A stretch of DNA of 61,775 nt, the filler included, from Collodictyon triciliatum (lineage: Eukaryota): assembly GCA_043381765.1 (NCBI GenBank). It is 13 parts of 13 records of this genome, joined end to end, with 100 filler letters (N's around TTAATTAATTAA, not from the genome) between each part and the next. Parts side by side here need not be neighbours in the genome. Positions count along the whole stretch, not along the records: positions 14,900 to 19,762 come from JBHJMP010005698.1; positions 19,863 to 24,724 come from JBHJMP010005699.1; positions 24,825 to 29,685 come from JBHJMP010005700.1; positions 29,786 to 34,646 come from JBHJMP010005701.1; positions 34,747 to 39,606 come from JBHJMP010005702.1; positions 39,707 to 44,561 come from JBHJMP010005703.1; positions 44,662 to 49,516 come from JBHJMP010005704.1; positions 49,617 to 54,466 come from JBHJMP010005705.1; 5 more parts are not named here. One strand, given 5' to 3'. The first letter of the stretch is position 1; each line of letters begins with the position of its first letter. Shown here one piece after another: positions 16,354 through 52,980 of the stretch. Under the pieces are notes generated by a model that saw only the letters and a list, made by a program, of their open reading frames with translations, ran no database searches and was not told the origin of the DNA. Position numbers and translations under genes: made by a program.

Positions 16354-16408
16354 AAGCGAGGACATATCTTTGAATCGAATAAAGAAAAAAAAGAAAGCGA
16401 GGTCATAT
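16354..16408 (+). mobile_element. Family A micro-insertion with 14-bp TSD
   Basis: AAGCGAGGACATAT [CTTTGAATCGAATAAAGAAAAAAAAGA] AAGCGAGGTCATAT (1 mismatch). Confidence 0.85.
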
Positions 16409-18387
16409 AGAAGGTGACATCTGCACTTTTTCGGACTGATATATTCCTTTTATTAAGATGCATCATAGAAAAAAAAAGGAAAAAGGTACTATCTACAACA
16501 AATAAATCCAAATATCTCCAAATTCAATCAAAATATTGATTCAGTCATTCCACCAACATAAACTAATATTTTTTGTGACAATAAAATTGGGCGAATCTGA
16601 AATGTAATAATGAAAGATTTTATAAAAGAATCCTCAAAAAAGAGAATCTAACATCTGCTTATATTTATTGTAAGAAATTTTATTTTATGTTTTAAAAAAA
16701 TTATTAATTAATCGCTAAGGATTTAAAAGAGTCGTCCATCCAGAGATGTTAATTACAAAGTCATACTGAAATAATTTGAGCTAAATTACAAATTTTCTAT
16801 GAGTTATTGTTCTTATGGATCATATTTTGGTGCCCAATAGAAGTAATAAATTATTTTATAAAATTTTGATATTTTCTGAATTTTTTTTCATATGGCAAAT
16901 ATGAGAGTTAATATTGCGTGTTTTAAGAGTTCATGACTCTAATTTCAAAGTATTACGATTAACGTAAACTTCAATAACCTTCTTACTCTATTAGATTTCT
17001 TAGAAGTATACATAAAGATAATATTCTGATCATTTAGGAAATTTGATGCTTTCTGATGGCAAAATTTAACAAAAGCTTTAATATGTAACTTAATTTATCA
17101 GTAAGAAAGATTCGGCTACCTTGCATTCGTTTCTTCATCACTCAGAATATTTGAATGAAGGTAAGTTTTGGAAAATATACACACAAAATTGGGCATTGAA
17201 CCTATTAATGTTTTAAAAAATATTTTAAGTAAAAACATTTTGATATTGAGGGTCTAAAAAACTTGAAACCCATAAGTTCACTACAAAAAACATGATTGGA
17301 AACTAAACTAGAAGATGGAATTTAAAAGAAACGGTTCATAGGCTTCTTAAATGCTCGACAGTAAGATTATGACAAACATCCAAATTTAAGATTTGTACTA
17401 TAGATATGCTTTATCATTATATCATAAAAATGACAAGTATTATACATAGTATGTGTCAAAATATTTAATATTATAATATAATATTAATCGATAAACAACA
17501 GAATATGCTCATCCCTTGGTCCTGCACAATAGTTGAAAGGAAGAATAAAAAAATGCTCATATTTCAATAGTCATATTTACATTTAAATTTTAAAATTGAT
17601 TTTATTTAAATTTCAATACACCAAATGAATCCCCTTTCGACCAATAAATTATTCTGACTACTTTAAAAATGATGGAATTACTTTTAATATTATCTTCATG
17701 CATTTTTGAATCTAATCCAGGGAAAAATCATACTATAACATTCAAGTATAAGTATTTGTCTAAATTTAAACAATTTCTTAGCTGGTGTTTGGATCGAATT
17801 AAGGAGAAAACAAAAAAAGATTACTTATATGATGAAATTACTTCAAGCTTAACTTTCAGTCCGAAGTATCCGTATAACTACATCGCTACTGGCTGTAAAC
17901 GATCCTATGTGTCAATTTACGATATTTTAGCATTTTTCTTGTTATCCCTTTCAATTTGTGCCAGATAAATGATCTTTTAGCATCAAAATAGCATTTTCCA
18001 TTATTCAATTAAAACTAGCATTGAAAACCACTTAATGACAGGTTTTAGCTTTTTATTCTTCCTTTCAATCGTCAGTTATTTCCTTGACTGATTTAATGGA
18101 AGTTATTTTCTCTTTTTTTTTTTACAGTCTGAAGTAATTTTTTTGTGCCTTGGTTGAAAACAGTACCACTTGTCAGTTTAGGGTGCAGGCCAACACGATA
18201 CGGCAGCTGATTTCATGGTTCATCACTACGCGTTTGCCAGGGTTGATGTTAGTTACCACCCTAAAGACCTGAAACTACCAGGCTTTCTGACCTGTTTTCG
18301 ATCCAAGGCCAAATTTTCCCCAGAGGCAAATGACCACACGACCATCTCGCCCCTCCTCGGTATGTATGAAGTATAATATTTGATCAT

Positions 18388-18540
18388 ATTTCCCTTCATT
18401 TGATTCAAAGTGCTGCAAGGGCATGCCTTAGAGGGAGAGAGATAGTTGTTCATGGTAGAGCAAACGTGAGAAGGAGACGACGTTACTGTGGAGAGGCTAG
18501 CACTGGAAAGAAATCAGTGATAACGAGTTGGTCAGGTGGG
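18388..18540 (-). mobile_element. Diverged family A retroelement copy (~150 nt)
   Basis: Matches 61555-61711 in the same orientation, e.g. TGTGGAGAGGCTAGCACTGGAAAGAAATCAGTGATAACGAGTTGGTCAGGTGGG. Confidence 0.85.
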
Positions 18541-52321: not shown

Positions 52322-52922
52322 AGTAAACGATAAAACGAGGAGGCGCAGGTTTAAGTCATCCATTTGTTTGTTTCTCACAACTTTGTTGCTCCCACCCAAC
52401 CCTCCTATCTTCTAACTAAAGGGAAAAAAAAATATAGTGTCGTGCCTTTATCTACATATTATTTAGAGAAAGCTACGACCATGAGAACAATTCAACCAAT
52501 AAAGAAATCATCACTATATAAGAAATAATGTCTTATTTATCGCACCAACAATGCATATTGGAATCGACATAGGGGCCAATAATTTTATTTCATTTAAATA
52601 TGTGCATTGCGGGGCTGCTATATATGATGTCGTTTGTATAGGGAATCCAGTGCGAGCGTAAATCGTGTAAAACTCTCTATTTTGTCTTCGTCGCCTCCTT
52701 CCTTTGCCTCATTTCCCTATCCAAATAAAACTCATTCTCTTTGTATCTTTGGCTTACATGCTACAGTATTTATTATTTATGAAAGCTGCGTTACTCCATG
52801 TTATTGTTATCCTTCACAAAGCAGCTACTTCATCCACAATTAGTATCATCGCCCAATTACTTCCTCATCTAAGTCATCACACCCTGCGCACCACACAATC
52901 ACAGTCTTGCGAGTCATGCTTC

Positions 52923-52980
52923 ATCATTGTCGCACGCACTTTGAATCGACTAAAGGAAAAAAAAATCATTGTCGCACGCA
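52923..52980 (+). mobile_element. Family A micro-insertion with perfect 16-bp TSD
   Basis: ATCATTGTCGCACGCA [CTTTGAATCGACTAAAGGAAAAAAAA] ATCATTGTCGCACGCA. Confidence 0.92.

What the first reader, a model, noticed from the sequence alone, without database searches (positions are those of the whole stretch)
16354..52980. Recurrent ultra-short retro-insertions (19-27 nt) with 14-16 bp target-site duplications
Seen: five clear cases, on four different contigs and in both orientations, at 16354-16408, 18967-19017, 22963-23015, 26790-26847 and 52923-52980. Weaker cases are at 53163, 17790 and 20090. Each has only the last 10-20 nt of family A (..TTTGAATCGAATAAAGG) plus an A-tail between duplicated targets, and three TSDs are perfect. 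They are at least as common as the four longer copies, roughly one per 12 kb here. Known: poly(A) plus a ~15-bp TSD is the footprint of target-primed reverse transcription. Inference: a recently active non-LTR system whose commonest product is a micro-insertion that repeat finders would miss. It scatters AATAAA signals and small duplications through the genome.
Basis: partly seen in the sequence, partly recalled or inferred. Interest (0 to 1): 0.8.

Follow-up and report, generated by a model that had tools for sequence, protein, structure and literature searches.

The report
Tiny LINE-tail insertions with stepped lengths
Two L1-like jumping genes have left about 2,500 recognisable tail ends in this eukaryotic genome, most of them only the last 10-45 bases plus a short A-run between duplicated target sites, and their lengths cluster in steps about 10 bases apart, which likely records how early copying stops.

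Summary
Confirmed. All five insertions are real. They are the 3' tip of an L1-like LINE (endonuclease + RT + zinc knuckle).

Genome-wide, 1,582 exact family-1 tail ends exist (control 0): 1,145 reach 17 nt, 386 reach 22, 336 reach 28 and 126 reach about 65. Target duplications (mode 16-17 bp, TT/A sites) flank 120 of 163 sampled copies, against 0 of 325 shuffled pairs. Eight paralogous empty sites, and one site filled in a freshwater metagenome but empty here, lack the motif.

Its stops fall at about 23, 33 and 42 nt (period 10.5, p 0.0003-0.002, repeated in a later sample); family 1 stops at 18-19 and 28. Junctions show no excess microhomology, and 31% carry extra bases.

The mechanism is ordinary target-primed reverse transcription. 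The early, stepped stopping is the unusual part; my best reading is a helix-phased early hand-off to the second nick (inferred). Density is one per 20-50 kb, not 12.

The scan reported this family before in at least eight other windows of this genome; no note retrieved mentions the ladder.

The parts
16354..16408 (+). Family-1 micro-insertion: 14-bp target duplication (1 mismatch), last ~18 nt of the LINE 3' UTR, A-run
18967..19017 (+). Family-1 micro-insertion: perfect 16-bp duplication, one extra base + last 11 nt + A7
22963..23015 (-). Family-1 micro-insertion: perfect 14-bp duplication, last 13 nt + A12
26790..26847 (-). Family-1 micro-insertion, diverged: 16-bp duplication (1 mismatch), ~17 nt of element + extra bases
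52923..52980 (+). Family-1 micro-insertion: perfect 16-bp duplication, last 18-20 nt + A8
53163..53230 (-). Probable older family-1 micro-insertion: perfect 12-bp repeat around 18 nt of element and a decayed A-rich tail
   Evidence: read by eye; the automatic scan scored it 3
17788..17810 (+). Family-1-like tail motif without a convincing duplication (weak)
13897..14344 (+). Longer 5'-truncated family-1 copy (end of ORF2 + 3' UTR + A8); matches RT-bearing loci at 79-89%
29786..29995 (+). Longer family-1 copy cut by the contig start
61556..61775 (-). Longer family-1 copy cut by the window end
18384..18540 (-). Old family-1 copy, 76-80% identical to the others
43801..43868 (+).
17502..17560 (+). 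Family-2 micro-insertion, ~34 nt; 11-bp duplication with 1 mismatch (score 8)
17921..17983 (-). Diverged family-2 micro-insertion; 13-bp duplication with 1 mismatch
18036..18094 (-). Possible family-2 tail, weak duplication (score 4)

Best explanation
These are 5'-truncated copies of two related L1-like LINEs that hold only the tip of the 3' UTR and a short A-run between 16-17-bp target duplications, likely made when target-primed reverse transcription is handed off to the second nick within the first few helical turns of cDNA. Steps: (1) ORF2 endonuclease nicks at a TT/A site (site preference shown; enzyme inferred). (2) RT primes about 7 A's into the tail (tail length shown; priming inferred). 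(3) The top strand is nicked 16-17 bp away early, while ORF2p still holds the target (inferred from the human structure, PMC7617806). (4) The short cDNA end, often with 1-2 added bases, is joined to that top-strand end without needing microhomology (junction pattern shown; template jump inferred). (5) The chance of hand-off would peak about once per turn of the RNA:cDNA duplex, giving stops at 18-19 and 28 nt (family 1) and about 23, 33 and 42 nt (family 2) (clusters shown; helical cause inferred). (6) Past about 45 nt the enzyme would be processive, and stops become 10-25 times rarer per base than at the peaks (shown). Identity as truncated LINE copies: about 0.97. The specific hand-off mechanism: about 0.45.
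For: Parent: the tail continues into RVT_1-bearing loci L036, L037, L041 and L053. The sister family's ORF2 has Exo_endo_phos + RVT_1, with zf-RVT in another copy; best solved match is human L1 ORF2p, E 7e-45. Duplications: 120 of 163 and 70 of 80 copies versus 0 of 325 and 0 of 159 shuffles, mode 16-17 bp; family-1 targets have T at -2 and -1 in 70% each. Empty sites: 8 independent paralogous cases among 184 queries, plus one site filled in run X4 and empty, single-copy in G000. Two-phase stop rate: 0.25/nt at 18-19, 0.011 at 22-24, 0.08-0.10 at 28-29, <=0.011 beyond 45. Genome-wide 1,145 reach nt 17, 386 reach 22, 336 reach 28. Family-2 period 10.5 nt, R 0.48, n 43, p 0.0003-0.002 with junction ambiguity simulated; the 17 loci fetched after I had noted peaks at 24/33/42 show the same phase, 2.0 versus 1.4. 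[quoted passage not shown]
Against: Three clustered stops spaced about 10 nt apart could be sequence-specific hot spots; my test cannot tell these from true periodicity. Subfamily 2b's C-run coincides with the 33-35 peak, and without 2b p is about 0.02 (n 32). Family 1's best-fitting period in the unselected set was 8, and its third peak (36-38) is weak. A ruler set from the nick predicts that element length trades off against tail length; rho was -0.06 (n 26) and -0.29 (n 35, p 0.09), and inconsistent in the other peaks. Chance-level microhomology and 31% extra bases fit run-off from a pre-cut RNA equally well. PMC10830420 (Discussion read) favours host cleavage over polymerase failure for human L1. 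No intact ORF2 was seen, and no RNA or biochemistry is available.
Confidence: 0.5

Rival explanations
1. Pre-cut template: host nucleases (slicing, or 5'-3' decay up to a protein footprint) leave short A-tailed 3' fragments of the LINE RNA on ORF2p. The RT copies each to its end, adds untemplated bases and jumps to the top strand, so each insert is a complete copy of a tiny RNA.
For: Of 61 perfect-duplication short family-1 inserts, 19 have extra bases, 26 are blunt and 16 overlap; overlap >=1 nt is 38% of the 42 clean junctions versus 47% by chance. This resembles full-length human L1 (chance-level microhomology), not truncated L1 (about 80%) (PMC2912911, passages). Human ORF2p is processive and adds untemplated bases at template ends (PMC10830420, passages and Discussion). 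Stops look fixed to the RNA sequence rather than to tail length. Modal insert plus tail is about 26 nt, a small-RNA size.
Against: A 10.5-nt step is natural for a duplex, not obviously for single-stranded RNA (inference). The 14 longer inserts with duplications show similar junctions, so junction type does not single out the short class. No RNA data.
Confidence: 0.3
2. Host repair trims a longer cDNA intermediate back to the part protected by ORF2p, or cuts the RNA:cDNA duplex on its exposed face once per turn, then joins the end to the top strand by end-joining.
For: Would give a helical ladder and extra bases (inference). End-joining is discussed for truncation in PMC3514663 (passages).
Against: Duplications stay narrow and clean (perfect ones 15-18 bp in 57 of 68), unlike the short duplications linked to truncated human L1 (PMC2912911). 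No excess microhomology. My scan would miss copies with target deletions (43 of 163 had no scored duplication).
Confidence: 0.15
3. An independent minimal SINE-like element of about 18 nt is being copied.
For: Sharp mode at 17-19 nt; a weak terminal hairpin spans exactly nt 18-2 (-0.3 kcal/mol).
Against: 5' ends are nested from 9 to >400 nt and are all collinear with the LINE 3' UTR; there is no separate head, and flanks are unique. A second family behaves alike with other lengths.
Confidence: 0.04
4. Local tandem duplication, slippage or an assembly artefact around a chance motif.
For: The assembly is fragmented and rich in simple repeats.
Against: Control count 0. Empty paralogues lack the motif. 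The same insert type is present in an independent metagenome contig.
Confidence: 0.01

Closest known systems
5'-truncated human LINE-1 insertions (PMC2912911, PMC12016303, PMC3514663; passages read)
   Same: Endonuclease-RT-zinc knuckle ORF2, A-tail, TT/A target, duplication of similar size (human peak 14-16 bp), 3'-anchored nested truncation.
   Different: Median length is 394 bp (somatic) or 1,240 bp (germline) in human, versus about 18-19 nt here. Tails are 34-39 nt versus median 8-9. Microhomology is present in about 80% of human truncated copies versus chance level here; extra bases 14.6% versus 31%. Stops here are clustered. The PMC2912911 survey excluded inserts under 50 bp, so it could not have seen such a class.
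Full-length human L1 and Alu 5' junctions made by template jumping (PMC2912911, PMC10830420)
   Same: Chance-level microhomology, extra bases, clean duplications.
   Different: Here that junction type sits on copies that hold under 1% of the element.
LINE-derived SINEs that share a LINE 3' end (recalled; PMC3747384 seen only as a search listing)
   Same: Short, share the LINE tail, moved by LINE ORF2.
   Different: No own head or promoter, no fixed 5' end; these are dead ends, not templates.

Membership tests
TPRT-made 5'-truncated non-LTR retrotransposon copy | Sequence is the 3' end of an RT-encoding element | tested here: met
TPRT-made 5'-truncated non-LTR retrotransposon copy | A-rich tail at the 3' junction | tested here: met
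   Median run 8 (family 1) and 9 (family 2); the anchor pattern required >=6-7 A, so shorter tails were not counted
TPRT-made 5'-truncated non-LTR retrotransposon copy | Variable-length target duplication above chance | tested here: met
   120 of 163 versus 0 of 325; 70 of 80 versus 0 of 159
TPRT-made 5'-truncated non-LTR retrotransposon copy | Empty site has one target copy and no element | tested here: met
   8 paralogous cases; 1 between-sample case
L1 clade LINE | N-terminal APE endonuclease followed by RT in ORF2 | tested here: met
   PF03372/PF14529 + PF00078 in family-2 L065. Family 1: PF00078 in L033; endonuclease seen only as homologous, broken frames in L063
L1 clade LINE | C-terminal CCHC zinc knuckle | tested here: met
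   PF13966 in family-2 L072; same motif visible in family-1 translations
L1 clade LINE | TT/A(AAA) endonuclease target preference | tested here: met
   (the A at position 0 is partly forced by merging with the tail; the upstream TT is not)
L1 clade LINE | ORF1 upstream of ORF2 | tested here: inconclusive
   A shared, broken upstream frame exists in L063 and L071; a 55-aa piece gave no Pfam hit
L1 clade LINE | RT phylogeny groups with L1 rather than Tx1 or other APE clades | not tested
   Only similarity: human L1 ORF2p E 7e-45 versus R2 1e-19; database relatives are 23-32% identical and mostly unnamed
Human-type truncated-L1 junction | 5' microhomology above chance | tested here: not met
   38% versus 47% expected
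SINE | Own 5' head or promoter and a fixed 5' end | tested here: not met
   Nested 5' ends, all LINE 3' UTR sequence

The most novel reading that the evidence does not exclude
The genome preserves a helical-phase ladder of abortive LINE initiation: in two sister elements the first cDNA is captured by the second nick once per ~10.5-nt turn until the enzyme escapes at about 45 nt, a promoter-escape-like checkpoint in target-primed reverse transcription that discards most events and can be read base by base from thousands of copies.
Probability: 0.3. Interest if true: 0.8.

Novelty: new variant of a known kind. Interest (0 to 1): 0.55.

Why it matters
Why LINE copies are 5'-truncated is still open (PMC10830420 and PMC3514663 both say so in the parts read). 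Here thousands of natural events stop within the first 45 nt, at preferred positions, in two related elements with different 3' UTRs. That makes the rival models (early second-strand hand-off, pre-cut RNA, host trimming) separable by small-RNA sequencing and a simple in vitro spacer test. Practically, inserts of 25-55 nt fall below the 50-bp floor of at least one human survey (PMC2912911), so copy numbers and activity of LINEs may be under-counted elsewhere (inference). Each event adds about 40-70 bp, including the duplication, and can serve as a presence/absence strain marker.

Tried and rejected
Raw reads of this genome: none offered; only environmental contigs holding at most 23% of the words of a nearby gene. 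None covered a window insertion with its own flanks, so empty alleles of the five window sites were not seen.

Orientation or intron bias, to test whether AATAAA matters: a crude coding model classified only 1 of 138 inserts as lying between exons, so it was uninformative.

RNA structure as the cause of stops: the family-1 terminal hairpin matches the 18-nt stop but is only -0.3 kcal/mol, and the family-2 hairpin base (nt 26) does not match its stops. Homologous sequence positions do not give homologous stops: family 1 stops inside the shared TRCAC motif, family 2 just 5' of it.

Nick-anchored ruler: inconclusive.

Metagenome scan with a two-family pattern: 116 loci, nearly all chance; one long family-1 copy (L374), no usable new micro-insertions; the scan covered 31 of 64 parts.

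A peak at 34 in the homology-based family-2 histogram was an artefact of a 34-nt reference, so duplication-defined lengths were used instead.

In the empty-site search 10 of 184 queries hit; one self-match (L089) and one duplicate locus (L035 = L063) were dropped.

A genome-wide count at nt 34 was not obtained; the sampled loci were used for that range.

No intact full-length element was found among 30 RT loci and 20 widened stretches. The host lineage was not determined.

Six literature searches (listings only) showed no paper on such a class or on a 10-nt truncation ladder. The library lacks most subscription papers, and supplements were not read.

Full report
Setting. The window is a string of ~4.9-kb contigs joined by spacers, from a 75.4-Mb, 14,576-contig eukaryotic assembly, G000. 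The lineage was not determined. Short contigs at least 99% identical to a window gene occur in three freshwater runs.

Observation. The five insertions are at the stated places, on four contigs and both strands; three duplications are perfect. Of the weak cases, 53163-53230 has a perfect 12-bp repeat, 17790 has no duplication, and 20090 was not recovered. The exact tail end plus six A's occurs 1,582 times in G000 (811 +, 771 -), and the reversed control 0 times. Among exact-anchored family-1 ends in the DNA I held, 120 of 163 not cut by a contig end or gap had a duplication scoring >=10, versus 0 of 325 shuffled pairs; 68 were perfect, and lengths peak at 16-17 bp. Targets have T at -2 and -1 in 70% each and begin with A. 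Density is one exact end per 48 kb, with 10 tolerant calls in 387 kb of unselected DNA, so the window is two to three times richer than average.

Parent elements. The longer copies continue into RT-bearing loci. The family-1 3' UTR is about 95 nt after the ORF2 stop (counted). A sister family, about 73% identical in RT, has an open endonuclease-RT frame of 749 aa up to an assembly gap. It hits PF03372 and PF00078, with PF13966 in another copy, and its best solved match is human L1 ORF2p (E 7e-45). Its UTR is about 52 nt, and its exact tail end occurs 911 times (control 5). It too makes micro-insertions: 70 of 80 with duplications versus 0 of 159 shuffles, including 3-4 in this window. No intact full-length copy was seen; 17 of 48 family-1 copies of 60 nt or more run into a contig end or gap. 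Counting by 3' ends largely avoids this collapse, because each 3' junction keeps its own flank (inference). The elements work like L1 and meet the domain tests; formal clade membership was not tested by phylogeny.

Insertion, not decay. Ten of 184 short inserts hit an empty paralogue in the DNA I held; after dropping one self-match and one duplicate locus, eight remain, each with one target copy and no motif. One sits inside a LINE ORF2 and has 18 empty matches among the held loci (some overlap). Separately, one low-depth contig of run X4 carries a ~20-nt family-1 insert between 15-bp repeats. Its flanks match a single-copy site in G000 that is empty, with 3 differences in about 60 flank bases. 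This is probably a presence/absence difference between strains, but it rests on one contig.

Lengths. Genome-wide, of 1,582 ends, 1,145 reach nt 17, 386 reach 22, 336 reach 28 and 126 reach about 65. Anchors are exact in 46 and 48 of 52 long copies, so about 72% of ends are shorter than 22 nt after correction. In 109 length-unselected copies, 81 have <=24 nt, 16 have 25-50 and 12 have more. Stop rate per base is 0.25 at nt 18-19, 0.011 at 22-24, 0.08-0.10 at 28-29 and <=0.011 beyond 45. Inserts under 10-11 nt cannot be seen with these anchors. In family 2, 43 of 87 ends passed the filters (duplication with <=1 mismatch, 8-55 nt, <=3 nt ambiguity) and cluster at about 23, 33 and 42 nt. The best period is 10.5 nt, R 0.48, p 0.0003-0.002 against smoothed nulls with junction ambiguity simulated and the period search included. 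I noted peaks at 24/33/42 before analysing the last 40 loci; the 17 usable ones gave the same phase (R 0.55; 2.0 versus 1.4; the period itself was fitted on all data). Against: without subfamily 2b, whose C-run lies at 33-39, p is about 0.02; family 1 has only two clear peaks and a best period of 8 in the unselected set; and hot spots that happen to be 10 apart would pass the same test.

Junctions. Of 61 short family-1 inserts with perfect duplications, 19 have extra bases, 26 are blunt and 16 overlap the target. Overlap (38% of 42) is no higher than chance (47%). In human, truncated L1 has microhomology in about 80% and extra bases in 14.6%, while full-length L1 is at chance (PMC2912911, passages). 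The 14 longer inserts here look like the short ones, so this is a property of the system.

Mechanism. Shown: parentage, tail, duplications, target bias, empty sites, length clusters, junction type. Inferred: that ORF2p makes both nicks, primes about 7 A's into the tail, and hands the short cDNA to the top-strand end by a template jump. [quoted passage not shown] I favour that, gated by the helical phase of the growing RNA:cDNA duplex, with escape at about 45 nt (0.45-0.5). The main rival is run-off from pre-cut A-tailed RNA fragments (0.3), which PMC10830420 (Discussion and passages) would favour and which the junctions fit equally well. Host trimming (0.15) is next. The test of whether the ruler starts at the nick was inconclusive. 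Human ORF2p uses templates with 15 A's or fewer poorly (PMC10830416, passages); the short tails here need not reflect RNA tail length.

Comparison and novelty. The chemistry is ordinary TPRT. What differs from human L1 is scale (median about 18 nt versus 394-1,240 bp, PMC12016303 passages; mean 585 bp, PMC3514663 passages), short tails, junction type and stepped stops. Six searches (listings) showed no paper describing such a class or ladder; coverage is partial. Eight earlier notes of this scan describe the same family in other windows of this genome, one naming two LINEs. A word search for a periodic ladder found none. These are unchecked AI notes, not independent support.

Verdict. Real, new variant of a known kind, interest 0.55. 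The ladder reading has probability 0.3 and would deserve 0.8.

Noticed in passing
L033, L036, L037, L041, L265 (G000 C11145, C708, C9985, C1381, C1122): Five separate family-1 copies share a ~700-nt internal deletion in ORF2 at nearly the same junction, and L052/L053 share a ~1,034-nt one: deleted derivatives that were apparently themselves copied.
   Followed up: partly
L214, L226, L230, L281, L292, L305, L310, L317, L318: A family-2 subfamily with a C-run at nt 33-39; most of its inserts that reach the run end within it.
   Followed up: partly
L075:1-2140 (G000 C4856) and L046: A third, more distant LINE family with an open RT frame; a family-2 copy has inserted into it.
   Followed up: no
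L031 (G000 C929): An LTR-type (Ty3/gypsy-like by eye) polyprotein frame, open for 1,500 aa.
   Followed up: no
L063:2625-2700 (G000 C2558): A family-1 micro-insertion inside a family-1 ORF2; sister copies give the empty site.
   Followed up: yes
family-2 loci including L291 and L295: Three family-2 ends have A-runs of 64-71 nt, against a median of 9; they may be very young or assembly artefacts.
   Followed up: no
window 27584 and 28739: The window carries copies of another dispersed repeat that serve as empty sites for inserts elsewhere; the repeat was not identified.
   Followed up: no
window 6932-9664 and 60282-60932: Several leucine-rich-repeat genes of an apparently expanded family; similar ones lie beside LINE copies in L062 and L071.
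   Followed up: no
window 46886-47677 and 49787-52321: GC-rich genes for a mitochondrial carrier and a CitMHS/TrkA-C transporter; the 52923 insertion lies about 600 nt past the latter's stop.
   Followed up: partly
L374: A metagenome contig holds at least 212 nt of a family-1 3' end.
   Followed up: no
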